This document shows positions 5,790 through 49,775 of a DNA stretch of 64,000 bases, piece by piece. The notes under the pieces are model-generated. The model saw only the letters and a program-made list of their open reading frames with translations. It ran no database searches and was not told the origin of the DNA. The stretch is from a virus, in IMG/VR virus record IMGVR_UViG_3300018080_000009, positions 40,015-104,014 of that record; one strand, 5' to 3'. Position 1 is the stretch's first letter; each line of letters starts with the position of its first letter. Made by a program: the position numbers and the translations under genes.

Positions 5790-6356
5790 ATGTCCAATTT
5801 ATTACAGCTAAATAGTGAACATTTTGATAACGAGATTCAGATGGATCTTGTTGAGATAGGTTGTGCCCATAAGATTGGTGCATTTTCTATGGAGAGGATG
5901 AGGTATGAGAAGACCAAGTCTGCTATAGGAGATGAGATTATTTATCGATTAGTTACTCAGATGGTTGCAGAAGCTTTGACTCCTAAGACTGAGACAAATA
6001 CCTTGGTTGAGTTTGATAAGACTGTAGAGGTAGACCTCCATATGGAAACTGTTGTACCCTTGTCTTGGTGGCAGCATTTTAAGAGGGATTGTTTTCCCCA
6101 ATGGATGCTGAAAATTTGGCCAGTGAAATGGGAAGTGAAGAATTCTGTTGAAAGGAAGAAGTTCATATTCAAAGGCAGAAAGAAAGTAGATGTGAAAGTG
6201 TTAGCAACGTATCCCAAGTTCAATCAAGTAGTTCCGGATTTAGGTCATTCTGTAATAAAGGCACATGTTTTAGGCTGTAGTGATGTTCCGATGAATGGAA
6301 CGTGTGATGTCGAGGTCACAGAAATAAAAGAAGGAGAGACAAATGGCAAAGAGTGA
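5790..6356 (+). CDS. hypothetical protein
   Basis: ORF with RBS; WWQHFK motif common in phage proteins. Confidence 0.7.
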   Translation: MSNLLQLNSEHFDNEIQMDLVEIGCAHKIGAFSMERMRYEKTKSAIGDEIIYRLVTQMVAEALTPKTETNTLVEFDKTVEVDLHMETVVPLSWWQHFKRDCFPQWMLKIWPVKWEVKNSVERKKFIFKGRKKVDVKVLATYPKFNQVVPDLGHSVIKAHVLGCSDVPMNGTCDVEVTEIKEGETNGKE

Positions 6357-27513: not shown

Positions 27514-27586
27514 GCCTCTGTAGCTCAGTTGGTAGAGCACCTGACTTGTAATCAGGGGACCGAGGGTTCGATTCCTTCCAGAGGCT
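27514..27586 (+). tRNA. tRNA-Thr(TGT)
   Basis: Acceptor GCCTCTG/CAGAGGC, anticodon arm CCTGA-CTTGTAA-TCAGG, T loop TTCGATT. Confidence 0.95.
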
Positions 27587-27773: not shown

Positions 27774-27844
27774 GGGACATTAGCCATCGGGGAAGGCACC
27801 AGATTGTCGATCTGGCAAGGTGAGTTCGAGTCTCATATGTCCCG
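27774..27844 (+). tRNA. tRNA-Asp(GTC)
   Basis: Acceptor GGGACAT/ATGTCCC, G73, CCAGA-TTGTCGA-TCTGG, T loop TTCGAGT. Confidence 0.88.
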
Positions 27845-27846
27845 CA

Positions 27847-27984: not shown

Positions 27985-28080
27985 CGACCTGTGACCAGTA
28001 ATTTAGGGGGTCTTTAACAGGGATCGAAACCTTGCAGGTGATGCAACCTGGGCATGTTCTAAAAAGGCCCACGCTTATAT

Positions 28081-28160
28081 GGACCGATAGCTCAGTCTGG
28101 CAGAGCACTCCCACCAGTTACACGCGGGAGAGGTCGTATGTTCAAATCGTACTCGGTCCA
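28081..28160 (+). tRNA. tRNA-Val(TAC)-like with enlarged 13-nt anticodon loop
   Basis: Acceptor GGACCGA/TCGGTCC, A73, normal D and T arms, CTCCC-ACCAGTTACACGC-GGGAG. Confidence 0.8.
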
Positions 28161-28173
28161 CTAGGGAGGAGTA

Positions 28174-28431
28174 ATGTTTACAGCATATCCTAAATGTAAA
28201 GATTGTGGGGGTCAGATGCATCCGATGGCTGGTCCTGGCAGTAATCCTATTTGTTATGATTGTGCTCGTAAGGAAAGAGAAAAGCTTGAGGAGGAAGTTA
28301 AGGAGATATTGAAGGCGCTTACGATAGAGAAGAGATTGTCTATTGTTGAGGCTACTTTGGTACGTAAGGCTGATGACTATTGGCTTTATGATTTTGTTCA
28401 GGGGTATCGTGCAGAAGATGATAACTCATAA
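28174..28431 (+). CDS. Zn-finger hypothetical protein
   Basis: CKDC...CYDC, GGAGGAG RBS. Confidence 0.65.
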   Translation: MFTAYPKCKDCGGQMHPMAGPGSNPICYDCARKEREKLEEEVKEILKALTIEKRLSIVEATLVRKADDYWLYDFVQGYRAEDDNS

Positions 28432-29233
28432 TGAATTAAAGAAATCTCTTAGGAATAAGTATCCTTGGTCTCATTGGATTTTGTTGAATGAGGTAAGGGA
28501 TGCTTCTGGGTATGAAGGTAATAGGTCAATAGATGCAGTGGCTTTTGGTCTTTATGCAAGCCGTGGGTATGAAGTTCATGCTTTTGAGTGCAAAGCTCAT
28601 CGTACAGATTGGTTGAGTGAACTTAGACAACCAGATAAAGCAGATGAATTTGCAACAATAGCCGATAAGTTTTGGATAGTAGCGAGTAAGGGAGTGGTGA
28701 AGAAAGAAGAATTGCCGAAGGGGTGGGGATTAATACTTGTATCTAGGAAGGGAGATGATTTTGTTACTCGAATAGTTGTCCAAGCTGAAATGAGTGAGCA
28801 AAGGGATTTGCCCAGACCATTTGTAGCCTCGATGTTAACTAAGCTTAGAAAGAAGATTGAGAAGTATCAAAGGGAATCCGTTTTAAAATCAGAGATCTAT
28901 GACCAGATTAAGGAAGCCCAAGAGCAAGGTAGAGAATGGGGTAAACGGTCTTCTGATTGGGATAAGAAAGATTATGATGTGCTCAAGAAAATAGTAGAAG
29001 ATTTCGAGGAAGCTAGTGGTATACGTTTGAATACTTTTAAAGGAGCCGATGTGATTGGGAAGGAAGTAGCTCTAGCCAGGTCTTTATTCAGTATTGGAAA
29101 GGATCAGGGATTAATTAATAGAGCCAAGGGTTTTGCAGGTAAGCTAAGAGGATTTGCGGATTCTATTGAGGAAAAAGCAGAGAAATTGTCCATTGTATGT
29201 GAAGAGATGACTAATACAGATGAAGAACTCTGA
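28418..29233 (+). CDS. MmcB-like PD-(D/E)XK nuclease with coiled-coil tail
   Basis: NEV, IDAVA, FECKAHRTDWLSEL..PDK, LPKGWGLI. Confidence 0.75.
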   Translation: MITHNELKKSLRNKYPWSHWILLNEVRDASGYEGNRSIDAVAFGLYASRGYEVHAFECKAHRTDWLSELRQPDKADEFATIADKFWIVASKGVVKKEELPKGWGLILVSRKGDDFVTRIVVQAEMSEQRDLPRPFVASMLTKLRKKIEKYQRESVLKSEIYDQIKEAQEQGREWGKRSSDWDKKDYDVLKKIVEDFEEASGIRLNTFKGADVIGKEVALARSLFSIGKDQGLINRAKGFAGKLRGFADSIEEKAEKLSIVCEEMTNTDEEL

Positions 29234-33973: not shown

Positions 33974-34426
33974 ATGGGGAAGTGGAGAGTAACAAAGCGT
34001 ATCGAATTTGATGCTGCACACAGGCTTTGTAATTATGTAGGAAAATGTTCAAATGTTCATGGACACCGGTATGCAGCAGAATTCACTTTTTCTAGTGATA
34101 GGTTAACTGATCAGGGTTTTGTCGTAGATTTTGGTGACATCAAGAGATTGATTGGTAATTGGATCGATGAGTATTGGGATCATGCTTTGATACTTAAAGA
34201 AGGTGATGAGGCTGTGAATATATCTTTGTCAGATGCCAAAGTTTATTACATGGATAAGTCTAATCCTACGGCTGAAAATATGGCTGAATATCTGTGGAAT
34301 AAAGCTTTCGAGCTTTTTGATAAGGAGAGCATAATCGACTATACGCGTGAGCATGAGTATAGAATTCGGTTAGAGAAGGTTCGGGTATATGAGACTCCTA
34401 CGAGTTGGGCGGAGTATATGAGATGA
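33974..34426 (+). CDS. queD: 6-carboxy-5,6,7,8-tetrahydropterin synthase
   Basis: FDAAHRL, C..VHGH, VDFG, DH, PTAEN, VYET. Confidence 0.93.
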   Translation: MGKWRVTKRIEFDAAHRLCNYVGKCSNVHGHRYAAEFTFSSDRLTDQGFVVDFGDIKRLIGNWIDEYWDHALILKEGDEAVNISLSDAKVYYMDKSNPTAENMAEYLWNKAFELFDKESIIDYTREHEYRIRLEKVRVYETPTSWAEYMR

Positions 34427-35124
34427 AGACATATAACGTAAGTGAGATATTTCTGTCCATTCAGGGTGAAGGTAGATCCGTAGGGTCTCCCGCAGTATTT
34501 GTTCGATTAGCTGGTTGCAACAGAAAATGTGAATTTTGCGATACTGATCATATGGTTCAGGAAGAAATGTCTTCAATGACTATCCGAAGGCGTGTCAGAG
34601 AATTAATTGAAGATTGTGAAGACATGTTGATAGTTCTGACTGGTGGAGAACCTCTGATGCAGATGGATCAGGAATTGCTGCATTATTTGTCAGGCATGGG
34701 CAAGGTATGTCTTGAGACAAATGGCGAGCTATGTGAAAATTTTTCAAAAAGGTTTGATGCCAAGTTTTATGACATTGTATTAAGCCCTAAGTCTCAGAAG
34801 ATAGATTCAGAATTTTTGCAAATGGTGGATACATTTAAGTTACTTGTCCCGTATCCGAAGGAGTTGGATGAGGAGAAGGTCAGAGCCATGATTACGATGG
34901 CTCAAAGGGGTGGTCCCAAAGAATTAATACTCCAGCCTCAAACGCATCCAGGATTGTTTCAGCTGGACGATACGAGGTCTATTCGTCTAGTAGGTGGAGA
35001 TGTCTTGGTTAAGTGGAGAATGAACTGTGAAAAGGCACTGAAGCTGTCTCTCAGGTGGAGACGACAGTACAATGAAAATTGGAGAGTAATACCTCAAACA
35101 CATCGATTCATGGAAATGAGATAA
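34423..35124 (+). CDS. queE: 7-carboxy-7-deazaguanine synthase (radical SAM)
   Basis: EIFLSIQGEG, RLAGCNRKCEFCDT, TGGEP, ETNG, SPK, QTH. Confidence 0.93.
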   Translation: MKTYNVSEIFLSIQGEGRSVGSPAVFVRLAGCNRKCEFCDTDHMVQEEMSSMTIRRRVRELIEDCEDMLIVLTGGEPLMQMDQELLHYLSGMGKVCLETNGELCENFSKRFDAKFYDIVLSPKSQKIDSEFLQMVDTFKLLVPYPKELDEEKVRAMITMAQRGGPKELILQPQTHPGLFQLDDTRSIRLVGGDVLVKWRMNCEKALKLSLRWRRQYNENWRVIPQTHRFMEMR

Positions 35125-35133
35125 GGAGAAGTC

Positions 35134-35520
35134 ATGACAGATGAGAAGATCATGGTAGATACGTATAGAGAAGGAGATGAGGAACCGACTCAAGCTCAAG
35201 AACCTAAGCTAACAGACGTTTCAGAAGAGGAGCAACAGGAAGAAGAGATTCCTTTGTCGGCAGTATTACTTCTCAAGTACAAGGATCGGGTAGAAATAGC
35301 CCCAAAAGGATTGGGAATCGAAGTAGATCATGAGGCATCTGCACGGGAGATCCGTGACATAGTTCATTCAGTGTACTGTGATTTCGATACCATGATTAAG
35401 GGCAAGGAAGCAGCTAAGGCTATGGCAACGACTCTTGTCCAGGCTTCGAGGGTTATTCAGCCTCCGAAAATGGCTATGACTAACTTGATGAAAGGTATGC
35501 CAGGAGGGAGACCAAGATGA
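35134..35520 (+). CDS. hypothetical acidic protein
   Basis: AAGGAG RBS. Confidence 0.65.
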   Translation: MTDEKIMVDTYREGDEEPTQAQEPKLTDVSEEEQQEEEIPLSAVLLLKYKDRVEIAPKGLGIEVDHEASAREIRDIVHSVYCDFDTMIKGKEAAKAMATTLVQASRVIQPPKMAMTNLMKGMPGGRPR

Positions 35521-36077
35521 ATGAAGCCAAGCCACTGGTTGAGCTTTCGAAAGCCGTTGATATGATTCTGGAATCTGTTGGTGAGAATACGGTTAGAGAG
35601 GGTTTAAGAGAAACTCCAGCTCGAGTAGCAAACATGTATCTGGATTTGACCAGGGGATTGAGAGATCCAGCTCCAGAAATGACTACCTTTGATAAAGGGG
35701 ATAACGATCAGATGGTGACCATTATGGGCATAGATTATTGGTCTATGTGTGAGCATCATTTGATTCCTTTTTATGGACAGGTTCATATTGGGTATTTGCC
35801 TAACGATAGAATAGCTGGATTGTCTAAGTTTGCCAGAATAACAGATTGGTATGCAAAAAGACCACAGATTCAGGAACAGATGACGGCCCAGATTGCTGGA
35901 CATCTGATGAGACAATTAGAACCCAAGGGTGTGATAGTGGTAGTAGAGGGTACGCATTTGTGTATGGCAATGCGTGGGGTTAGGAAGCCCAATCATGTTA
36001 CGATGACTTCAGCTATCCGAGGAAACATACCTAAGTCTGAGTTTCTTGATCTGCTCAAGATTCATAAAGGTAAATAA
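35517..36077 (+). CDS. folE: GTP cyclohydrolase I
   Basis: GLRETPARVA, CEHHLIPF, GLSKFAR, QIQE, HLCMAMRG. Confidence 0.95.
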   Translation: MNEAKPLVELSKAVDMILESVGENTVREGLRETPARVANMYLDLTRGLRDPAPEMTTFDKGDNDQMVTIMGIDYWSMCEHHLIPFYGQVHIGYLPNDRIAGLSKFARITDWYAKRPQIQEQMTAQIAGHLMRQLEPKGVIVVVEGTHLCMAMRGVRKPNHVTMTSAIRGNIPKSEFLDLLKIHKGK

Positions 36078-36478
36078 TGCGTGATTGGGGAGGCAAGAAG
36101 CCGATAGCTGTCGTAGATATCGATGGAGTATTGGCTACAGGCACAGTGGAAGATGTTTATTCAGAAGATGCTGGATGGGCATTTGGTAAATGTAGTCCAA
36201 TTTTTGAAGGGATCGAAATCTTGAATAGGCTTCGTGAGCAAGATGTGAAAATAGTGCTTCATACGGCCAGATGGGAAGATGACAGAGCAGTTACCGAGCA
36301 TTGGTTGAGTTCACATGAAGTAGCTTATGATGAGTTGATAATGGGCAAGCCTAGTGCAGACATCTATATTGATGACAAGAACTTTCCAGTTCCTTTCATT
36401 CCGGAGGATTGGGATTTAGATCGGGCCATTAATTACATTTTAGATGAAATCGAAAGCAATCGTGGGAAGAGAACATAA
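36077..36478 (+). CDS. HAD-superfamily phosphatase
   Basis: DIDGVL, HTAR, GKP, YIDDK. Confidence 0.85.
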   Translation: MRDWGGKKPIAVVDIDGVLATGTVEDVYSEDAGWAFGKCSPIFEGIEILNRLREQDVKIVLHTARWEDDRAVTEHWLSSHEVAYDELIMGKPSADIYIDDKNFPVPFIPEDWDLDRAINYILDEIESNRGKRT

Positions 36479-37623
36479 TGGAGAGAACAGTTCCAGACGT
36501 TTCTAAGCAGGAAGGTAAGTTCGAGAAGAGGTGGTCTAAGAGTTTTGAGAAGATGCAAGTACTCAAGGCAGAATGGCTTATTACCAGAAAATGCGATTTG
36601 AAATGTTCTTACTGTAGGATTATAGATTCGTCTTCTTTGCATGGTAGGCCGGAATTGACTACTCAGCAATTGATCGATGTAGTCAAGATGTTTGCAGATC
36701 AATGGCCTGGGGCACCGCTGGTAGTTTATGGTGGAGAACCTTGTACTAGGGATGATTTGCCTGAGTTGATTAGTGCTGGTAGGGAGTATGGTGTAAAGCT
36801 TCCTGTCATTTCGAATTCTCTGAGGATTATGAGGGATGAAGATTTTCGTGAGAGGCTAGTACGTTCTGGCCTAGAAAATTGGTCTGTTTCGTTTGATGGA
36901 GCTTGGGAAGATCAAACTGTGGATAAGGCTTCGTTTTTGAAATCTGATAAGGGATTCAAGGCTCTTCAGATGTTCAGAGATAAGTATGGTATTAGGGATT
37001 TGGTAGCATGTGTTACAGTGACAAATAGGAATATAGATAATCTTCCTCAGATTCTTCAGTATCTGACGAGGGAAGGTATTCATGCCATATTTACTCCCTT
37101 ACATATTGGGGGCCCAGAGTATGAATATGGTCAAGGAAATCCAGATGACTTGCCTTCTCAGAAACAATTAGATGAAGTGTCTCCACAACTTTATTCGATG
37201 GTGAAGTCGGGTAGGTATCTTTGTTCTAATGATGCAGCGTGGTTTAATGTGTAGCCAGAGCATTTTCGGAAACAAGATTGGATGTGTAATGATAAAGGTC
37301 TGGTGACCATAGATGCCGATGGTTCGTTGAAGTATTGTGTAGACATTGCATTTAGGGAAGAGGATACGATGTTTGTCTGGGAGCTTTCTACGGAAGAAGG
37401 TCAGAGAAAGTTTCTGAAGACCATTCAAAAAGGTCCTGTGTGTAAAGGGTGTTTGTGGAATCCAGCTTACGAATGTATTAAGAGAGCAAGGGATCCTGAA
37501 ATAGGTATCGATGAAGGGAGAAAGCGTTCACGACATTACGTTGATGAAAAGAGGATAGATATTTTATATGGGGGTGCTGGTAAGTATTTCAAAGGTAATC
37601 CTGAGTTGAAAGTATGTAGATGA
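36478..37623 (+). pseudogene. radical SAM + SPASM protein interrupted by one in-frame TAG (37252-37254)
   Basis: CDLKCSYC, GGEP; same frame continues after TAG into C...IDADGSLKYC...CKGC...C. Confidence 0.8.
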
Positions 37624-37841
37624 GTGAGAAGGACGATAAAAAAGTTTTTAATCTAGTTAAAGGTGGTGGAAAACCAAATAAGCTCAAAAAGCTTCTGGAG
37701 GATTTCAAGGAAAATTTACCTATCTTGATTGAATATTCAGAACCGAATGCAAAATTATGTATGGCTAGGTATAAAGCTTTCTTGGCCGAAGGATTTGATT
37801 CTGTCCAAGCACTGTCCTTAACCATGAAAATGTTAGAGTAG
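37620..37841 (+). CDS. conserved small phage protein
   Basis: YKAFLAEGF..QAL motif. Confidence 0.65.
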   Translation: MSEKDDKKVFNLVKGGGKPNKLKKLLEDFKENLPILIEYSEPNAKLCMARYKAFLAEGFDSVQALSLTMKMLE

Positions 37842-37854
37842 TTTAGGAGAGATT

Positions 37855-38694
37855 ATGCCCAAGAAAAAGACATTGTCGTCTGTCGTTGTTGAGGAGCCAG
37901 GCATTACAGTTGCGATTCCAACGATAGGTAGGGTAGAAACGCTTCCTGCTGTAATAACGTCGGTGTGTTTCCAGACGTATTCTGTCGGTGAAATAATCAT
38001 TCTTGATGAAGCTAAGACTCCAATTATGGAATCGTATGCAGTGAATCAAGCGTTAGACGTATTGTCTATCAGGAATGGTGTAGAGATAAAGGTCATTCGA
38101 AGTCGTAGAAGGGGAGGTATTGGTGCAGCTAGATTGAAGTTGGCTGAAGAAGCTTTGAATGATCGTATTATGATGATTGATGATGATGTGGTTTTGAATC
38201 CGGCATGTATAGAACATTTGTATAATGCACTTCAGGATTATGAGGTTCCGTGGGCAGTACCGACCTGTTTCTTAGTACCGGCTAATTTAGAGTTGGATGG
38301 ATACATAGATACTTTGGTTGATGCTGAAGATCCGAAGGTGGTATCATGGACAGAAAAGTATCCGTGGTTTGTTCCGTATTTTCGATATTTGGGATCCATA
38401 GAGAGGAAGATACCTGTAGCTGGTACGCAAAGCATTATGCTTTCTAAAAGAGAATTGCTTTCTAAAGCTGGGGATATGTGGAAGCTAGGCAATCTTCCGA
38501 GAGAAGATACCTATATGACTAAGAAGATGGGTCCAGGCATGTTTATTTCGAGAGCAGAATGTCTACATTATGAACACCCTTCTCAATTGGATAGAGGAAA
38601 TTGGGGTAAGTCTACGTTTTATCGTCTACATGAAGCTATAATGACAGATCCAGATGGGTTTCTGTCCATGATGAAGAAGAATGGTGTAGATTAG
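37855..38694 (+). CDS. glycosyltransferase, GT-A/GT2 family
   Basis: VAIPT, IILDE, G.GAAR, MIDDDV, RED. Confidence 0.85.
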   Translation: MPKKKTLSSVVVEEPGITVAIPTIGRVETLPAVITSVCFQTYSVGEIIILDEAKTPIMESYAVNQALDVLSIRNGVEIKVIRSRRRGGIGAARLKLAEEALNDRIMMIDDDVVLNPACIEHLYNALQDYEVPWAVPTCFLVPANLELDGYIDTLVDAEDPKVVSWTEKYPWFVPYFRYLGSIERKIPVAGTQSIMLSKRELLSKAGDMWKLGNLPREDTYMTKKMGPGMFISRAECLHYEHPSQLDRGNWGKSTFYRLHEAIMTDPDGFLSMMKKNGVD

Positions 38695-38703
38695 GAGAGA
38701 TTC

Positions 38704-39819
38704 ATGAAGGTAGCCCTGATAGCAGATGAGTATCGTACTTCTTATAGTAGGTTTGAAGACTATTATTTGAATTATTCTGCTATGGGCTATGTTGAAGGAC
38801 TAAGCAGAGCTCTAGTTGAAGCAGGCCATGAGGTATTGGTCATAGCCCATAAGCCAGAATCTGAGTTTAATAATGGTAGATTTACTGCCTTGGGATTAGG
38901 GATGCAGTCTGATATTGAATTCTCTCAGTCAGTGCATCATATTTTGTGTGAGAAGCCTGTCGATGTTGTTGAGGCTCCGTCTTTCAAGTATCCCCTGTTG
39001 ATTGAGCAGCTTGTTGGAGGGACTCCCACGGTAGTACGTGTTGACATTGGTACAATGGATTTGGTTGAGAAGGGTAGATGGGCTGATGATGTAAAATATG
39101 CTTCAAGGCATAAGTCCTGGTCTAGGCATCTACTTGAATTGAAAACAGTGTCTATGGCTTCTGGAATCATAGCTCCGAAGTCGGTCCATAGAAGCAGGGC
39201 ATCTTTGATTACAGATGCTCCGATTTCTGGGATTTCAAATGGGGTAGATATTCTGATAGACAGGGAAGATCTGTTTGAGAATAGAGAAGGTTTTATTATT
39301 CCAGTGTTAGATGTTTCTAGGGAGATGTCTGCTTTAGTCAAAGGGATCTGTTCAGTACTCCAGGGTGAGAAAGTTACTTTGGTAGGGCATCCGAATATCG
39401 GCAGTTTGTTTGATGGGGCTTTTTTGAATACAGTTACTTTAGAGATGGATATAGGACTTCATTGTTGGACTAAGAGATTGCTTTCTTGTGAAGCTGTAAT
39501 TCTCCCAGGCATGTTGTCGGAGTATACTCCTATGGTTATGGATGCAATGGTTCATGCATGTCCGACTATTTGTTTCAACTGTGGACCAGATACAGCTTCT
39601 TGGCCTTTATATTTCATGGGTGAGCAAAATATTCTCTCGGTCAGGAATCTTCCGAAGATTTTGGATTTTATGCGTAAGGAAAAGAGGGAAGATCAGGTGA
39701 ATAAGTTCTATGAATTTGCTGAGAAGCATTTGTGGAGTAAATTAATCCCTGAGTACGAGGAAATATATCTCGATGCTATGGCTTATTCGGCTAATAGAGG
39801 ACGTACACGAGGATGGTAG
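38704..39819 (+). CDS. glycosyltransferase, GT-B/GT4-like (divergent)
   Basis: MKVALI, L...GHEV.V, ISNGVD, DAMVHACP, W......YEEIY. Confidence 0.75.
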   Translation: MKVALIADEYRTSYSRFEDYYLNYSAMGYVEGLSRALVEAGHEVLVIAHKPESEFNNGRFTALGLGMQSDIEFSQSVHHILCEKPVDVVEAPSFKYPLLIEQLVGGTPTVVRVDIGTMDLVEKGRWADDVKYASRHKSWSRHLLELKTVSMASGIIAPKSVHRSRASLITDAPISGISNGVDILIDREDLFENREGFIIPVLDVSREMSALVKGICSVLQGEKVTLVGHPNIGSLFDGAFLNTVTLEMDIGLHCWTKRLLSCEAVILPGMLSEYTPMVMDAMVHACPTICFNCGPDTASWPLYFMGEQNILSVRNLPKILDFMRKEKREDQVNKFYEFAEKHLWSKLIPEYEEIYLDAMAYSANRGRTRGW

Positions 39820-41459
39820 ACAAAGGCACAGGGCAGGAAAACATTGTCGTCGATGACGATGAAGAGTTTCCATATTGTGGTAGGGAAGGTGATATAGAAG
39901 AGCCACCTGAAGATGAGGAGGATCTTCCTGAGACATTAGAATTGTCTCCAGTTCCAGAGAATACGTCTGAAGATTCTTTAGACTCTCGTATAGAAGTAGT
40001 GAAGAATCCGGCTTTAGAATCATTCTTGAAACGATGTGATAGAGATTTACCTCCAGATAGAAGGTGCTATGGAATAAAGCTTTGTTTTGCTGGTTGTGAA
40101 TCAAAAGCTGTAAGGGATGGATTGTATCGAATAGGAGTACGTCAGATTCTGGTTTCGTATTTTTATTTTAGGAAGTATCTCAAGAGGACGTCCCTTCAGG
40201 AGCTTGCCGAAGACCTAGGTAGATTTGATTTTGTGTTTCTTGATTCTGGTGGATTTACTCTGATGCAGGCTTTGCAGAAGAATAAGGCTACAGAGAATTT
40301 GAAGGATTATGCAGAGGAATACTACCGTGAATTGCCTAAGATACATCATTTGTTCTCGATATGTGCTGAAGTTGACGTAGAAGAATTAGGCATAGCCTAT
40401 ATGGAGGAGAAGAAGCGTCAGATGCTAGATGCAGGAGTAAATATAGCTCCAGTCATCCAGCAAAAGCCAATATCTCAGTATGAGAGCTATGGTTGGTTTG
40501 ATTTGTTTCCCTACATAGCTTTGGGTTCTATTACAGCCAGTGATCCTAAATATGTTTCGTACATTAATCAGCTGTATGAAATCGGTAAGGAAAAGGGAAT
40601 TGTCTATCATGGTTTTGGTGTGACCAGAGCTAACACGATTCTTCGTTCTCGATACTATTCAGTCGATTCTACGTCGTGGACTTCTGGAGCTCGATTTGGC
40701 GTGACTATGATTTTTCAGAATGGTCGTATACGTCACTATGACAAAAAGAAAAAAGATGTTCGTAAGAGGTATAAGAGAAGGTTTGAAGAGGCTGGATTGA
40801 TCTGGAGTGATTTGGAGCAGGATAAGAACTTCGAGATCAATATGATGAATGCTTTGGCTTGGAAACAATGGGCAGACTATATCAAGTATTCCGCACATAA
40901 ATGTTACTGGTTGACACCGAAGGAGTGGGATGAAGCTCTGACCATGAAATCCAAGGCTTTTAATGCCGAAGGTCTGATGGATAGAAGTGCATCTATTCAG
41001 AGGACTATGAGTAGGAGATTAGCTCAGGTAGATGATGCGAGGAAGGATGATAGGACTCAAGAACCCCTGCTATGTAACAATTGCAATATGTCTGGTAGGT
41101 GTCCCAGATATAAGCCAGAACAACCGTGTGGATATGACATCAATATTCGATTAGAGACTCAAGCTGATCTGAAGAGAGCTATTCAGATAGTGTTGGAGTC
41201 TCAATTAGGTAGAGTGAATACAGGGATTTTATTTGAAAAGCTGGAGGGAGGTACTTTTGATATGAATCTTTCTCTAGAGGTCCAGAGATTTATGAACATG
41301 GTTGCCCAGGCAAAGAGTATTTTTGAAATACGTGACGATGAGATAGAAATAAAGGCTAAGGGTGGTGGAGCTGTATCCAAGATGATGGAAGCTTTGTTTA
41401 AAGATTCAGATTCCAAAAAAGAAAAGGGTCCGGTAATTAATATTACGAAAGAAGATTAG
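39813..41459 (+). CDS. dpdA: DpdA/TGT-like 7-deazaguanine DNA transglycosylase with C-terminal Cys domain
   Basis: FLDSGGFT, YHGFG, SVDSTSW TGT-barrel motifs; queD/queE/folE context. Confidence 0.72.
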   Translation: MVDKGTGQENIVVDDDEEFPYCGREGDIEEPPEDEEDLPETLELSPVPENTSEDSLDSRIEVVKNPALESFLKRCDRDLPPDRRCYGIKLCFAGCESKAVRDGLYRIGVRQILVSYFYFRKYLKRTSLQELAEDLGRFDFVFLDSGGFTLMQALQKNKATENLKDYAEEYYRELPKIHHLFSICAEVDVEELGIAYMEEKKRQMLDAGVNIAPVIQQKPISQYESYGWFDLFPYIALGSITASDPKYVSYINQLYEIGKEKGIVYHGFGVTRANTILRSRYYSVDSTSWTSGARFGVTMIFQNGRIRHYDKKKKDVRKRYKRRFEEAGLIWSDLEQDKNFEINMMNALAWKQWADYIKYSAHKCYWLTPKEWDEALTMKSKAFNAEGLMDRSASIQRTMSRRLAQVDDARKDDRTQEPLLCNNCNMSGRCPRYKPEQPCGYDINIRLETQADLKRAIQIVLESQLGRVNTGILFEKLEGGTFDMNLSLEVQRFMNMVAQAKSIFEIRDDEIEIKAKGGGAVSKMMEALFKDSDSKKEKGPVINITKED

Positions 41460-45757: not shown

Positions 45758-46408
45758 ATGGCAACCACAAAGAAGAAAACCGTCAAGAAAACCACAGCAA
45801 AGAAATCAGTCAAAAAGACTGTAGCCAAGAAACCAACTGACAAGAAAGTGTCTTCCGAGAAGACAACAGCCAAGAAGGCTGATCCTAAGAAACCCGTCAA
45901 AGAAAAGGTGGCTCCGGTGAAGATCGATATTTTTGCCAAGCACCATTTATTTTCGGTAAAGCTGCCGAAGGGTACAGAGGTTACCAGAAGAAGCAGAAGG
46001 CCGGTAGTAGCCGTTGTTGCTTTGGTTCATGCTGACGGCCATCAAGGAGTTGTTCAGTGGACCAGCAACCTGTCCAGAGCCCGTTTTGTGGCTAAGGAAC
46101 ATGAGGATCGATCCAAGGATGGCGGAAAAGGTTACGCCAAGGCTTTTGGCAAGAAACCCCCGAAATGGTTTCAAGAGCATGGTGCACCGGTTGAGGTGAA
46201 GATCCTGACTGAGGTTAAGGATCTCGGTGAAGCTCCAGAGGAAGTTAAGGAGAAAGCTCCGAGAGCAAAGAAAAATAAGAAATCAGTTCCAGTCGATGAC
46301 ATCTTCAAGACCAAAATTCAAGCCGAGAAAGCAGCAAAGGCTCTGAAGCTGAATCCGGAAAAAGTCATTTCCAAAGTAGACGAGGGTTGGAAGGTATCTT
46401 TGCCCTAG
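45758..46408 (+). CDS. Lys-rich histone-H1-like protein
   Basis: KKTVKKTTAKKSVKKTVAKK repeats at the N-terminus. Confidence 0.7.
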   Translation: MATTKKKTVKKTTAKKSVKKTVAKKPTDKKVSSEKTTAKKADPKKPVKEKVAPVKIDIFAKHHLFSVKLPKGTEVTRRSRRPVVAVVALVHADGHQGVVQWTSNLSRARFVAKEHEDRSKDGGKGYAKAFGKKPPKWFQEHGAPVEVKILTEVKDLGEAPEEVKEKAPRAKKNKKSVPVDDIFKTKIQAEKAAKALKLNPEKVISKVDEGWKVSLP

Positions 46409-47163: not shown

Positions 47164-47512
47164 TGATCCCTCTTACAGGAAAATTGCCTCCAGATGGGAA
47201 CTAGTTGAGACAAGGGCAGACGGGTCTTCTTGGATAAATCGCAAGAAGAAGCTTTATGTCATTGGTTCAATTGCAGTTGAGCAAGATGGAAAGAGATGGT
47301 TGCACTTGTCGATGTCTCATCAGAAGAGAATTACGAATTATGAAGAGCTTACGTATCTAAAGAGACATTGGGCAGGAGATGACAGAAAATGTATAATGGT
47401 ACTTCCAGCTAAGAAAGAGCATGTGAATATCCATCCAAATGTACTGCATTTGTTCTGTTGTCTAGATGAAGACCCATTACCAGATTTTACTCGTGGATTG
47501 GGTATGATCTGA
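47163..47512 (+). pseudogene. conserved phage protein with apparent 1-nt frameshift near 47193
   Basis: MIPLTGKLPPD then frame change to WELVETRADG...WLHLSMSH...HVNIHPNVLHLF. Confidence 0.6.
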
Positions 47513-47540: not shown

Positions 47541-48188
47541 ATGAAAGTAAGACTTACATTGGTAGAAGAAATGCTGGGAACCTCGTGTTCGAATCCCGAG
47601 GTGCATGAGGAATTCATTGCCAGCAAGAGTGCAGACAAGGTGAAAATCAAAGAGGAGCTTGAAGCTCTTCCAGCCGAAGTGTTGATAGAGAAATCCTTGA
47701 CGATTTTTCCACGAGATGAAAATGGAAATCCATTCCTCTATGATTATCAGATCAGGGGATTCTTGAAGAATTTCCTAGGAACGAAGGTTGAGTTTGGACC
47801 ATTGGTGCTGAAGGTAGGTAAGAAGGATTATAAGTTTTCGAAATGGACCTACAAACGTCTTGTTGATAACTATGTCTTTGTCAAGCCGCGGAGGATCAAG
47901 TTGAACATGCCAGAAGGAAGTGAAGTTAGTTTCTGTACACGTCCACTAAGAGCTGAGACAATGAAGGGTGAGAGGGTGGCTTTAGCTACATCAGAAGCTG
48001 TCCCAGCAGGAACGACATTTGAATTCGAGATAAGGTGTCTTCAGCCAGAACTGTATGATTTGATGCCAGAAGCTCTAGACTACGGTGAATTCAATGGATT
48101 GCTTCAATGGAGGAATTCGGGAAAAGGTACCTTCACTTGGGAGGATCTAGATGAGCAAAAAGTCGAGGAAAGCAAGAAATCGGCGTAA
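47541..48188 (+). CDS. stand-alone Cas7/RAMP-fold (Csm3-like) protein
   Basis: MKVRLTLVEEMLGT, PFLYDYQIRGFLK (cf. P.IPGSSLKG.LR), EAVPAGTTFEFEI, G-rich loop GLLQWRNSGKGTF; no adjacent cas genes. Confidence 0.8.
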   Translation: MKVRLTLVEEMLGTSCSNPEVHEEFIASKSADKVKIKEELEALPAEVLIEKSLTIFPRDENGNPFLYDYQIRGFLKNFLGTKVEFGPLVLKVGKKDYKFSKWTYKRLVDNYVFVKPRRIKLNMPEGSEVSFCTRPLRAETMKGERVALATSEAVPAGTTFEFEIRCLQPELYDLMPEALDYGEFNGLLQWRNSGKGTFTWEDLDEQKVEESKKSA

Positions 48189-48321
48189 AAGAAGACAAGA
48201 AAAGGATTTTCTCAAGAATGGTTCCAAACCCAGACACAAATCGAAAAGTGGACGTACTGGAAAGATTCAAAGTACTAAGAACAAGTCCCTGAATGATAGA
48301 GCACAACGAAAAAAGAAGTAA
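48151..48321 (+). CDS. 56-aa Arg/Lys-rich peptide (not in ORF track)
   Basis: GGAGG RBS; MSKKSRKARNRRKRRQEK...RAQRKKK. Confidence 0.55.
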   Translation: MSKKSRKARNRRKRRQEKDFLKNGSKPRHKSKSGRTGKIQSTKNKSLNDRAQRKKK

Positions 48322-48322
48322 A

Positions 48323-48867
48323 AGAGAAGTTATGTGCAGTTCTGTAAGGGAACGGTGCTGAATCATCAAGTATGATTCCGTAATGGTAATGAAAGGAAGA
48401 GCATATCAACGTCTTGTATCGGAAGGGTACTGTTCAGCTTAGTTATGAAGTGTATAGGTACTGATGAGTCTTGTGTGATTTTGTAGGGGAAGAGTACAGA
48501 TGCGTATTTATGAGAGGGGTAACGTCCAGGTGTAGTTGAGCAGTTTGGAGTTATGGAGTGGCGCGGTAAAGTTGCGTTCTGGTATGGTCCTGTGAAGTCA
48601 TGTAAAGGATACGTATTGAACTGTTATATAGGGTCCAGATATGGTCTGGTATGGTGACGAGAATATCCGTAGAGGATGTGAGGCGTTTGGTAAAGTTATG
48701 TCACGTCAAGGAACTGAAAAGTCATGTTTGATTTAGTAGTGGCGTGGTCGGGTCTGGTGCTGGCATGTACGATGGGGTCTAGTGGAGGCGCTGTGTTATT
48801 CGGTAGTGAAGTGTCCCGTTGGGCACAGGAAGAGTGCTGCGTTGAAGTGTGAGAAAGGGACTTGTGG
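48323..48867 (+). repeat. non-coding 5-nt-periodic array (NGW-NN pentamers, DGG-NNN hexamers); putative guide-RNA array
   Basis: Manual parse tiles the interval with 91 pentamers (79 with G at position 2) and 15 DGG-initiated hexamers; no ORF of 60 aa or more spans it. Confidence 0.85.
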
Positions 48868-48969
48868 TTCAATACAGACGTTCCGTGGGAGGAACAAGGC
48901 TTCTGTCTTGTCTCAATTAAAGAAGTCTAGCAAACAAAAGGAGGTAGCAGGGGATAAATAGGTGTGTCC

Positions 48970-49019
48970 GGCATCTGTCTGTGGAGAGTCAGTAGGTTCG
49001 AATCCTACCAGATGCCCCA
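48970..49019 (+). ncRNA. minimal tRNA-His-like RNA (acceptor + T arm, G-1:C73, CCA)
   Basis: G-GCATCTG...GTAGG-TTCGAAT-CCTAC-CAGATGC-C-CCA; 14-nt linker TCTGTGGAGAGTCA contains GTG. Confidence 0.75.
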
Positions 49020-49037: not shown

Positions 49038-49775
49038 ATGAAATACAGTCCAAGGGATAGGTGTACAGAAGAAGAATTGGCAATAACCAGTATTGATAAT
49101 GATACTGTCTTTACTGATGCAGTAGTATCGAAAGTGCTTCCTAATGATGTGAAATTTGTAGATGGCTTTCATTTGTTTGTTGAAGATGCTGAAAAGTATG
49201 TTCAGCCAGATGATACGCTTCGATTATATGGCCAAGGTATTGGTCATGTTGTAAGAGGAGTGGCGGTAGTCAAAGAAAATGGGAAGATAGAAGTATTGAG
49301 ATATAAAACTCCTCTAGAGTCTGCCACAGAAGACTGTAAACGGTTTGAGGAAAACGATAGAAAGCGTGAAGAACAAGCTGAGAAGATACGTAAACAAGTT
49401 GATGTTGATCAGCCTCCCAAGTTTAAGTGTAAGGATCTAGATGCTTGGAAGACCTGGGTGAAGAATAATCTTGAGCCCTATGGTCGTGCAGTAATTGTGT
49501 ATGCTGAAAGATGGGCTGTACTGATGGAAAAGAAGATGGCTGAGGGTGCGACTCTAAAAGACATTGCCAAAGATACAAGTCACGAAGCAGACACAGATGG
49601 GATCACTGGATTCATGTATGGTGCAGCCATAGCTACACTTGTTGGAACGTGGGAACATGGAGAAGAGCTGAGAAAATGGCATAATCTAGATATGCAGATG
49701 GGAGACGAGGGTGAGAAAGCCAATGAAGAAGGTGGAGTATTGAATCCTGCTTGTTTGAGTATCAGCAGTTACTAA
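49038..49775 (+). CDS. conserved phage hypothetical protein
   Basis: GITGFMYGAA...WEHGEELRKWHN motif, AAGGAG RBS. Confidence 0.75.
   Translation: MKYSPRDRCTEEELAITSIDNDTVFTDAVVSKVLPNDVKFVDGFHLFVEDAEKYVQPDDTLRLYGQGIGHVVRGVAVVKENGKIEVLRYKTPLESATEDCKRFEENDRKREEQAEKIRKQVDVDQPPKFKCKDLDAWKTWVKNNLEPYGRAVIVYAERWAVLMEKKMAEGATLKDIAKDTSHEADTDGITGFMYGAAIATLVGTWEHGEELRKWHNLDMQMGDEGEKANEEGGVLNPACLSISSY

What the first reader, a model, noticed from the sequence alone, without database searches (positions are those of the whole stretch)
47541..49019. Solo Cas7/RAMP protein plus a non-CRISPR periodic RNA array: candidate phage RNA-guided system
Seen: a 215-aa ORF with Cas7/Csm3-type motifs in the expected order (N-terminal strand+G, P..Y..QIRG.LK, E.VPAG..FEF.I, G-rich loop GLLQWRNSGKGTF). 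There is no adjacent cas1/2/5/6/8/10 and no direct-repeat array. Directly downstream is ~550 nt of non-coding DNA with 5-nt periodicity, then hairpins and a tRNA mimic. Known: Cas7 subunits polymerise along guide RNA with a fixed nucleotide step per subunit. Inference: each subunit clamps the conserved NG(T/A) triplet and displays the variable NN, so the dinucleotides spell a gapped target (rival phage or host DNA), probably for silencing since no nuclease is linked. I recall a recent report of viral Cas7-ancestral proteins with alternating GGY/NN RNAs (VIPR), not verified here. If related, this locus is a variant with an NGW consensus and hexamer punctuation.
Basis: partly seen in the sequence, partly recalled or inferred. 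Interest (0 to 1): 0.96.

Follow-up and report, generated by a model that had tools for sequence, protein, structure and literature searches.

The report
Phage VIPR system with punctuated guide array
This 104-kb uncultured phage carries a lone Cas7-like protein gene followed by a 550-base array of five-letter RNA repeats. This is a real example of the CRISPR-related VIPR guide-RNA systems first described in 2026, so it is a new member of a known kind, in a little-studied format whose targets are still unknown.

Summary
ORF 47541-48188 (215 aa) has no Pfam or PHROG match but folds as a single-domain RAMP (VIA Z 12.7 to type VII Cas7, 12.6 to Csm3). The non-coding stretch 48318-48866 is the only 5-nt-periodic region in the 104-kb phage (lag-5 z = 6.4). 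It reads as G-W-N-N-N pentamers in about 15 modules of 4-9 units, each opened by an extra G ("GGW" hexamer).

The link between gene and array is family-wide. In 79 of 80 viral homologue loci a same-strand G-anchored pentamer array lies near the gene, abutting it in about 76. Phase slips are +1 in 1266 cases and -1 in 70, and 89% of hexamers start GG. Close relatives differ by indels of one unit or of whole modules. The genome has no Cas1, no second RAMP and no CRISPR array, and no accessory gene is conserved.

This matches the VIPR systems of the 2026 bioRxiv preprints, which list non-canonical YNNNG, NNNNG and WGT/NN repeats and "staggered" arrays. Sequence homology to SUSP1 Vipr is weak and limited to the G-loop. 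I found no convincing target and no RNA data. A tRNA-like minihelix with an encoded CCA (48970-49019) closes the locus, but only one of the 80 relatives shows something similar.

This scan has already noted more than 100 VIPR loci on other DNA.

The parts
47541..48188 (+). vipr-like gene: 215-aa single-domain RAMP (RRM core, thumb hairpin about residues 130-154, G-loop G186-F198)
   Evidence: ORF. No Pfam or PHROG match. AF2 model pLDDT 78.5. Foldseek and VIA-align: all top hits are Cas7/Csm3, Z 12.7. The family profile matches the type VII Cas7 G-loop, E 9.5e-5. The family holds 1,932 clusters at 50% identity.
48151..48321 (+). possible 56-aa, extremely basic (K/R-rich) ORF that overlaps the end of the gene and fills the A-rich spacer; doubtful
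   Evidence: ORF list. A GGAGG lies 6 nt before its ATG, but that sequence comes from the conserved W-E-D/E codons of the RAMP gene (sequence). No Pfam or PHROG match. No counterpart in 80 related loci, where the array usually starts right after the stop codon.
48318..48866 (+). vrRNA-type array: about 100 pentamers G-W-N-N-N in about 15 modules
   Evidence: Lag-5 z = 6.4. Register and modules from Viterbi parsing. Clear modules start at 48354, 48385, 48426, 48457, 48488, 48529, 48565, 48586, 48607, 48653, 48674, 48710, 48756, 48787 and 48828. Each opens with a GG[T/A/C]NNN hexamer. Lengths are 21-46 nt (5n+1). A few boundaries are ambiguous where GGT recurs.
48867..48969 (+). linker between array and tRNA-like element; periodicity fades; weak hairpins
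   Evidence: Fold z = -0.98, not better than shuffles. No + strand terminator-like site.
48970..49019 (+). tRNA-like minihelix: G-1, 7-bp acceptor stem (48971-48977 paired with 49009-49015), 14-nt connector, T arm with GGTTCGAATCC, discriminator C49016, encoded CCA
   Evidence: Rfam tRNA 23.3 bits, with the D and anticodon arms deleted. MFE -18.2, z -2.5. Not called by ARAGORN. Not conserved in the clade: only L011 has a comparable element.
49038..49775 (+). context: downstream gene with a Tad4 (type I Thoeris inhibitor) domain
   Evidence: PF25186, E 1.1e-32, residues 130-231; phrog_9822.

Best explanation
The locus is a VIPR-type RNA-guided system of a phage. The array is transcribed with, or just behind, the RAMP gene.

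One Vipr-like protomer binds each pentamer. It holds the fixed G, and the W/H that follows it, through the G-loop and thumb. It presents the free bases so that they pair discontinuously with double-stranded DNA of a rival mobile element or a host gene. No nuclease or other partner gene is linked, so the likely outcome is binding and transcriptional silencing rather than cutting.

In this clade the array has no structured tails. It is cut up by a +1 'GG' punctuation into short modules of 4-9 units, which are the likely individual guides.

My best guess for the register follows the published YNNNG form: fixed G = G2 of the canonical GGY, next base = Y3, the next two bases = the guide NN, and the last base = the relaxed G1 position.

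Shown here: the fold, the array grammar, the gene-array linkage across the family, and turnover of units and modules.

Inferred: transcription, filament formation, DNA silencing, the register, and processing at GG.
For: RAMP fold over residues 1-205: VIA Z 12.7 (type VII Cas7) and 12.6 (Csm3). In the unfiltered search of 48,161 chains, all 50 listed entries are CRISPR RAMPs.

The G-loop aligns with the SUSP1 Vipr family: GlGQWRNSGKGrF against GlgDWRPRFGRF. W190 and R191 are invariant here and match W178 and R179, which contact the GGY motif in the cryo-EM paper.

H17 and D177, which read G1 in SUSP1, are T14 and Q189 here. This fits the loss of one fixed G (inference).

A G-anchored, same-strand pentamer array lies near the gene in 79 of 80 viral homologue loci and abuts it in about 76.

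Family-wide grammar: +1 slips 1266 against -1 slips 70. Module size peaks at 5-7 units. Hexamers are G-G-[C/A]-A-n-[A/T] (n = 1211).

Among phages 94-99% identical in the gene, the flanks are 95-100% identical but the arrays differ by 5-nt and 5n+1-nt indels (26, 41, 21 nt). Longer indels leave a remainder that fits 3-4 modules (119, 144, 164 nt). Substitutions hit G at 4.5%, the next base at 9%, and the three free bases at 18-20%.

The record is a complete virus without Cas1, a second RAMP or a CRISPR array.

The published VIPR papers describe exactly this kind of locus, including the YNNNG, NNNNG and WGT/NN variants and 'staggered' arrays.

I re-identified the reference SUSP1 locus, so the comparison is to the real system.
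Against: There is no RNA evidence for this phage.

Sequence homology to SUSP1 Vipr is weak. hhalign gives 66% probability (E 5.7e-5) over 54 columns. With a more diverse alignment this drops to 28% (E 6.4e-4). A HMMER profile search does not reach PDB 36pp at all.

The canonical GGY/NN consensus, the 3' tail and the vap gene of the characterised type II system are all absent.

No natural target was found, so neither DNA targeting nor the reading rule is demonstrated for this clade.

The nearest solved structures are RNA-targeting Cas7 proteins.
Confidence: 0.85

Rival explanations
1. The same ribonucleoprotein filament forms, but it targets RNA (transcripts of a rival phage or the host) rather than double-stranded DNA. 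It would act like the type III and type VII Cas7 backbones that are its closest solved structural relatives.
For: The top structural matches are Csm3 and type VII Cas7, both RNA-targeting. The sequence link to the DNA-binding SUSP1 Vipr is weak. A conserved acidic residue (D32) lies in the low-confidence N-terminal region.
Against: All characterised VIPR systems bind dsDNA. The pentamer architecture, with fixed bases flipped out every 5 nt, is the VIPR hallmark and not the 6-nt Cas7 step. No Cas10, Cas14 or other effector is present.
Confidence: 0.07
2. The period-5 tract acts at the DNA level, for example as a protein-binding or bent-DNA array, an origin-like element or a recombination hotspot. 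The RAMP-fold protein would then be an unrelated or DNA-binding neighbour.
For: There is no transcript evidence. The arrays are recombinogenic, with frequent unit and module indels.
Against: The fixed G is on the gene's coding strand in every one of the 80 loci, whether the array lies upstream or downstream. That strand rule is expected for an RNA. The protein has the RNA-binding RAMP fold and G-loop. A 5-nt period does not fit DNA helical phasing of about 10.5 bp.
Confidence: 0.03
3. The locus is a decayed remnant of a phage-borne CRISPR-Cas system: a leftover Cas7 with the other cas genes and the array lost.
For: The fold is Cas7. A UniProt homologue is named 'Cas system-associated RAMP superfamily protein'.
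Against: The family is huge (1,932 clusters at 50% identity). It is consistently solo and consistently paired with pentamer arrays. The gene is intact, with invariant residues. The genome has no cas1 and no CRISPR repeats.
Confidence: 0.02

Closest known systems
VIPR systems with non-canonical repeats (YNNNG, NNNNG, WGT/NN) and 'staggered' vrRNA arrays: bioRxiv 10.64898/2026.04.26.720920 (methods, figs S17-S18) and 10.64898/2026.10.21.760802 (fig. S10)
   Same: Phage-borne solo RAMP of about 200 aa. Adjacent same-strand pentamer array with one or two fixed bases and free bases. Continuous arrays without per-guide tails. No CRISPR components.
   Different: I could not see the figures or tables, so I cannot confirm that this clade is one of the seven published types. 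I also cannot confirm that the +1 'GG' punctuation is what the paper calls staggering. The second fixed base here is T/A; in the family it is mostly C/A. No vap gene is conserved. This locus has a tRNA-like cap.
Type II VIPR of Escherichia phage SUSP1 (KT454805: Vipr 28474-29061, vap1 28031-28471; PDB 36pp)
   Same: Same overall logic and protein size. The G-loop W-R pair is shared. The array is on the coding strand. The context is a phage.
   Different: SUSP1 has GGY/NN units in uninterrupted runs of 9-16. Each vrRNA ends in a tail of about 40 nt with a pseudoknot, and a vap1 gene is present. The window has one strongly fixed G per unit, modules of 4-9 units separated by one extra G, no tails and no vap. 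Sequence similarity is confined to the G-loop.
Cas7 backbone subunits of type III (Csm3/Cmr4) and type VII CRISPR-Cas
   Same: Same RRM, thumb and G-loop fold (Z 12-12.7, 11-20% identity). They polymerise on guide RNA with a fixed step.
   Different: Those use a 6-nt step on CRISPR-derived crRNA. They sit in multi-gene cas operons and target RNA. None of that context is present here.

Membership tests
VIPR (Vipr protein + vrRNA) | Small single-domain RAMP with RRM core, thumb and glycine-rich loop | tested here: met
   AF2 model pLDDT 78.5. Z 12.7 and 12.6 to Cas7 and Csm3 over residues 1-205. All 50 listed entries of the wide search are RAMPs. G-loop profile match, E 9.5e-5.
VIPR (Vipr protein + vrRNA) | Detectable homology to an experimentally characterised Vipr (SUSP1, PDB 36pp) | tested here: inconclusive
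   hhalign of the family against the SUSP1 family gives 66% probability, E 5.7e-5, over the G-loop only. A broader alignment gives 28%, E 6.4e-4. The HMMER profile does not reach 36pp. 36pp is not in the fold libraries.
VIPR (Vipr protein + vrRNA) | Tandem pentanucleotide repeats with fixed and free positions, next to the gene and on its strand | tested here: met
   Window. Family: 79 of 80 loci, always G on the coding strand.
VIPR (Vipr protein + vrRNA) | Canonical GGY/NN repeat consensus | tested here: not met
   Phase composition is G 81%, then T/A 77%, then three free bases. GG occurs only at module starts. The papers accept 'a related consensus' (YNNNG, NNNNG, WGT/NN), which this array fits.
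VIPR (Vipr protein + vrRNA) | Free positions hypervariable between close relatives while fixed positions are kept | tested here: met
   Tested in relatives, not in this phage. Substitutions hit G at 4.5%, the next base at 9% and the free bases at 18-20%. Unit and module indels occur while the flanks stay 95-100% identical. No near-identical copy of the window itself was available.
VIPR (Vipr protein + vrRNA) | Outside CRISPR context, mostly viral | tested here: met
   Complete 104-kb virus record with terminal repeats. No Cas1, no PF03787 RAMP, no CRISPR-like repeats.
VIPR (Vipr protein + vrRNA) | Accessory vap gene (typical, not universal) | tested here: not met
   Apart from the RAMP, no + strand neighbour ORF family is shared by more than 14 of 81 loci, and none of these includes the window. 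Minus-strand ORFs were not clustered.
VIPR (Vipr protein + vrRNA) | vrRNAs expressed and co-purifying with the protein | not testable with these tools
   Needs small-RNA sequencing and a protein pull-down.
VIPR (Vipr protein + vrRNA) | Natural targets found by the 1-nt-skip (NNx) rule | tested here: inconclusive
   Seven pattern scans of IMG/VR and a local search under nine rules gave no convergent target. Only exact matches could be scanned.
CRISPR-Cas type III / VII effector | Cas7 encoded with partner cas genes and a CRISPR array | tested here: not met
tRNA (for 48970-49019) | Full cloverleaf that passes the Rfam or ARAGORN threshold | tested here: not met
   23.3 bits against a gathering score of 29, with the D and anticodon arms missing. 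ARAGORN gives no call. It is a tRNA-like minihelix, not a tRNA gene.

The most novel reading that the evidence does not exclude
This very large clade (about 1,900 clusters at 50% identity) may use a VIPR code that differs from the published GGY/NN one. It would have two fixed and three free bases per protomer. Guides would be delimited only by a one-base 'GG' stagger, with no tails or ribozymes, giving 21-46-nt mini-guides of about one helical turn. The reading rule may not be the 1-nt-skip dinucleotide rule. In this phage the array transcript may also be finished by a tRNA-His-like minihelix that recruits RNase P, the CCA enzyme or HisRS.
Probability: 0.2. Interest if true: 0.65.

Novelty: new member of a known kind. 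Interest (0 to 1): 0.4.

Why it matters
VIPR is a newly described RNA-guided DNA-recognition class, proposed as the ancestor of the CRISPR RAMPs. Only the GGY/NN type II form has been characterised.

This locus belongs to a much larger branch found in sediment, gut and rumen samples. In this branch the arrays keep one strongly fixed G per unit, are punctuated every 5-7 units by one extra G, and have no tails and no partner gene.

Working out how such arrays are cut into guides, and which bases are read, would show how flexible the gapped code is. It would also give a shorter, denser guide format. As a single locus, however, it does not change the picture already published.

Tried and rejected
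**Target search, exact scans of IMG/VR**
- Module 48674 read as NNN with 0 or 1 skipped base: 0 hits each.
- Three 9-unit modules read with the last two free bases plus 1 skip (18 fixed bases): 0, 1 and 0 hits. The single hit lies in a portal-like gene with the skipped base at codon position 2, so it is probably chance.
- Two 8-unit modules read in the YNNNG register (16 fixed bases): 15 and 25 hits. The apparent frame bias and the recurring peptides (VHGLL[D/E]TA, STWIWGNP) are forced by the pattern itself. The flanking proteins are unrelated apart from near-duplicate contigs, so there is no convergent target.

**Target search, local**
- A hash search of 1,373 modules against 1.46 million positions (both strands counted: own genome plus all loci) under nine rules found nothing except the arrays themselves. 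There is no self-targeting.

**Inferring the reading rule from guide statistics**
- Stop-codon and CTA/TAG depletion within the free triplets looked suggestive.
- After per-locus normalisation, the junction dinucleotides do not carry the genomic signature. The within-unit signal is explained by simple adjacency in the DNA. I rejected this line.

**Other attempts**
The metagenome scan returned only relatives at 59% identity or less.
- RNA evidence: no RNA holder is listed. One DNA run, from a sediment metagenome, is probably the source.
- Self-assembly: complex prediction with three copies gave no verdict.
- Hairpins at 48790-48970 are not better than shuffles.
- No hammerhead or other Rfam family is in the locus.
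- A more diverse family alignment did not improve the link to SUSP1 Vipr.

Full report
**1. What is in the sequence**

The window is bases 40015-104014 of a complete 104,014-bp virus record with direct terminal repeats. A sediment metagenome is the only public run that holds the stretch.

ORF 47541-48188 (+) encodes 215 aa behind an AGGAG site. The protein matches no Pfam or PHROG family.

The gene is followed by four stretches:
- An A-rich spacer of about 130 nt.
- A 550-nt tract with no credible ORF.
- A linker of about 100 nt.
- A 50-nt tRNA-like element that ends 18 nt before the next gene.

**2. The periodicity is real and unique**

Identity at lag 5 over 48322-48900 is 0.39, against 0.274 +/- 0.018 in shuffles (z = 6.4). 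Lags 10, 11, 15, 16 and 21 are also raised, which signals a 5-nt unit with occasional +1 steps. No other part of the 104-kb genome reaches the same excess.

A phase-tracking Viterbi parse gives about 100 pentamers with G at phase 0 (81%) and T/A at phase 1 (77%), followed by three free positions. There are 15 +1 slips. With an insertion state that has no base preference, the slips fall at hexamers that read GG[T/A/C]NNN. This divides the array into modules of 21-46 nt, that is 4-9 units. A few boundaries are ambiguous where GGT recurs.

**3. The protein is a RAMP**

An AlphaFold2 model built on 42 homologues has mean pLDDT 78.5. Only residues 17-51, a helical insert, fall below 50.

- Foldseek against the PDB returns only Cas7, Csm3, Cmr4 and Cas7-11 chains at the top. 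The best is type VII Cas7, E 2.6e-7.
- VIA-align gives Z 12.7 (8yhd, rmsd 4.9 over 162 residues) and Z 12.6 (Csm3 of 9ash).
- An unfiltered comparison with 48,161 chains lists only CRISPR RAMPs among the 50 best entries.
- The family profile matches the G-loop of type VII Cas7 by sequence, E 9.5e-5.
- In BFVD the best match (44% identity) is already named 'Cas system-associated RAMP superfamily protein'.

**4. The gene and the array belong together**

The family is large:
- 980 clusters at 90% identity in the word-indexed search.
- 1,932 clusters at 50% identity with E at or below 1e-3 in the exhaustive search.
- 206 IMG/VR contigs.

I fetched 80 viral loci. In 79 of them a period-5 signal lies beside the gene. 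With a stricter detector, 78 show an array of 250-1,780 nt. Its periodic base is always G on the coding strand. In about 76 loci the array abuts the gene, either directly downstream or directly upstream.

The grammar seen in the window holds for the whole clade:
- Phase slips are +1 in 1,266 cases and -1 in 70.
- Module size peaks at 5-7 units.
- The 1,211 six-base units read G-G-[C/A]-A-n-[A/T], with 89% G at the second position. Ordinary units read G-[C>A>G,T]-N-N-N.

The base after the fixed G depends on the lineage: T/A here, C/A or C/T elsewhere.

**5. The arrays evolve like guide arrays**

Six phages are 94-99% identical in the gene (L024-L034), and their flanks are 95-100% identical. 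Their arrays differ in three ways:
- Single-pentamer indels.
- Indels of 26, 41 or 21 nt, that is 5n+1, or one module.
- Longer indels whose remainder modulo 5 fits the loss of 3-4 modules (119, 144, 164 nt).

One pair (L034 and L026) differs by a single substitution in 836 aligned bases, yet by one 164-nt deletion.

In columns without gaps, substitutions hit the fixed G at 4.5%, the next base at 9%, and each of the three free bases at 18-20%.

**6. No CRISPR context and no partner gene**

The genome has no Cas1 and no Pfam RAMPs match. The region has no CRISPR-like repeats. Clustering of + strand neighbour ORFs across 81 loci finds nothing shared by more than 14 loci, and nothing shared with the window.

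The 56-aa, very basic ORF at 48151-48321 has no counterpart elsewhere. Its apparent ribosome site comes from conserved RAMP codons, so I regard it as doubtful.

**7. Comparison with what is known**

VIPR systems are described in bioRxiv 10.64898/2026.04.26.720920 and its structural companion .720927. Their main points are:
- A phage-borne ancestral RAMP (Vipr) binds vrRNAs built of YNNGG repeats.
- One protomer binds per repeat. It flips out GGY and presents NN, which pairs with dsDNA while skipping every third target base.
- The outcome is transcriptional silencing of rival elements.

The paper defines seven types. It mentions alternative NNNGG, YNNNG and NNNNG repeats, 'staggered arrays' of vrRNAs that overlap by 1 nt, and ribozyme-interspersed arrays. 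A later preprint (10.64898/2026.10.21.760802) lists 21 clusters with non-canonical units such as WGT/NN and TGH/NN.

I located the reference locus in phage SUSP1 (KT454805). The 195-aa gene at 28474-29061 is the protein of PDB entry 36pp, 'SUSP1 Vipr protein' (E 1e-128). Its flanking intergenic regions carry uninterrupted GGY/NN runs, each followed by a tail.

A profile-profile comparison of the two families aligns only the G-loop. It gives 66% probability and E 5.7e-5, falling to 28% with a more diverse alignment. The papers themselves stress that RAMPs share little sequence.

In that alignment W190 and R191 (invariant here) match SUSP1 W178 and R179. The G1-reading residues H17 and D177 are T14 and Q189 here. 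From this I infer that the fixed G of this clade corresponds to G2 and the following base to Y3. That gives the published YNNNG form, with the former G1 position relaxed. This is an inference, not a test.

I could not see the paper's figures or tables, because no supplements are held. So I cannot say which of the seven types this is, or whether the +1 GG punctuation equals 'staggering'.

**8. Mechanism**

The most likely mechanism is that of VIPR: co-transcribed array, one protomer per pentamer, gapped pairing with dsDNA, and silencing because no nuclease is linked.

The modules are the probable guides. They are the units of gain and loss, and each begins with a more constrained hexamer. The binary SUSP1 filament has six subunits per turn, close to the modal module size here. 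That may be coincidence.

**9. Targets**

I could not find a target. Exact-match scans of IMG/VR under four reading rules gave either nothing or hits that do not converge on a gene family. A local search of all 1,373 modules under nine rules found nothing, and found no self-targets.

Statistical attempts to infer the rule from the guides alone did not survive a per-locus control. Scans could use exact matches only, so this is a weak negative.

**10. The tRNA-like cap**

Positions 48970-49019 fold into these parts:
- A 7-bp acceptor stem and a T arm with GGTTCGAATCC.
- Discriminator C, an encoded CCA, and a G at position -1.
- A 14-nt connector in place of the D and anticodon arms.

It resembles an RNase P substrate. 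As another first-stage note points out, it also carries the G-1:C73 mark of tRNA-His.

It is not a conserved part of the system. A T-loop motif search of all loci, and ARAGORN on 15 of them, found nothing comparable except in L011. L010 has a genuine tmRNA and a tRNA after its array. It could define the 3' end of the array transcript, or it could be an independent element that happens to lie there.

**11. Verdict**

The locus is a genuine member of the VIPR class published in 2026, from a very large non-canonical branch. It is not a new kind of system. This scan has already recorded more than 100 VIPR loci on other DNA, including this branch with its modules of about 31 nt.

What remains open, and of moderate interest, is the reading rule, how guides are processed at the GG step, the targets, and the tRNA-like cap.

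Noticed in passing
window 49038-49775 (+): The gene directly after the locus has a Tad4 (type I Thoeris inhibitor) domain: PF25186, E 1.1e-32, residues 130-231. A counter-defence gene therefore sits next to the guide system.
   Followed up: partly
window 48970-49019 (+): The tRNA-like minihelix has G-1 opposite discriminator C, an encoded CCA and a perfect T arm. The 14-nt connector contains CTGTGGA, a possible tRNA-His mimic. I did not test charging or RNase P cleavage.
   Followed up: partly
window 48151-48321 (+): A 56-aa ORF made almost only of K, R, S and N overlaps the end of the RAMP gene. It has no homologue in related loci. It may be a by-product of the A-rich spacer or a small nucleic-acid-binding peptide.
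   Followed up: partly
L010:5329-5645 and 5866-5939; L011:4900-4995: Two relatives carry tRNA-type genes just after their arrays. L010 has a full tmRNA (118 bits) plus a tRNA. L011 has an acceptor and T-arm element with a long insert and a CCA.
   Followed up: partly
proteins P0242 (458 aa) and P0249 (432 aa): Some family members are twice the normal length and match the profile in two stretches. These may be tandem-fused Vipr-like proteins.
   Followed up: no
window 47300-47512 (+): The upstream neighbour has a DUF7694 domain (E 5.9e-16; phrog_7839). Its function is unknown.
   Followed up: no
window 45758-46408 (+): A 216-aa protein has a lysine-rich N-terminus with a weak, sub-threshold histone H1-like (HC2) match. 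It may be a DNA-coating protein.
   Followed up: no
window 27514-27586 and 27774-27845 (+): The phage encodes tRNA-Thr(TGT) and tRNA-Asp(GTC).
   Followed up: no
whole window / genome: Base composition is strongly strand-asymmetric: C makes up only 14.5% of the + strand, and nearly all genes lie on one strand. Another first-stage note reports a 7-deazaguanine DNA-modification cluster at about 33974-41459 of the window.
   Followed up: no
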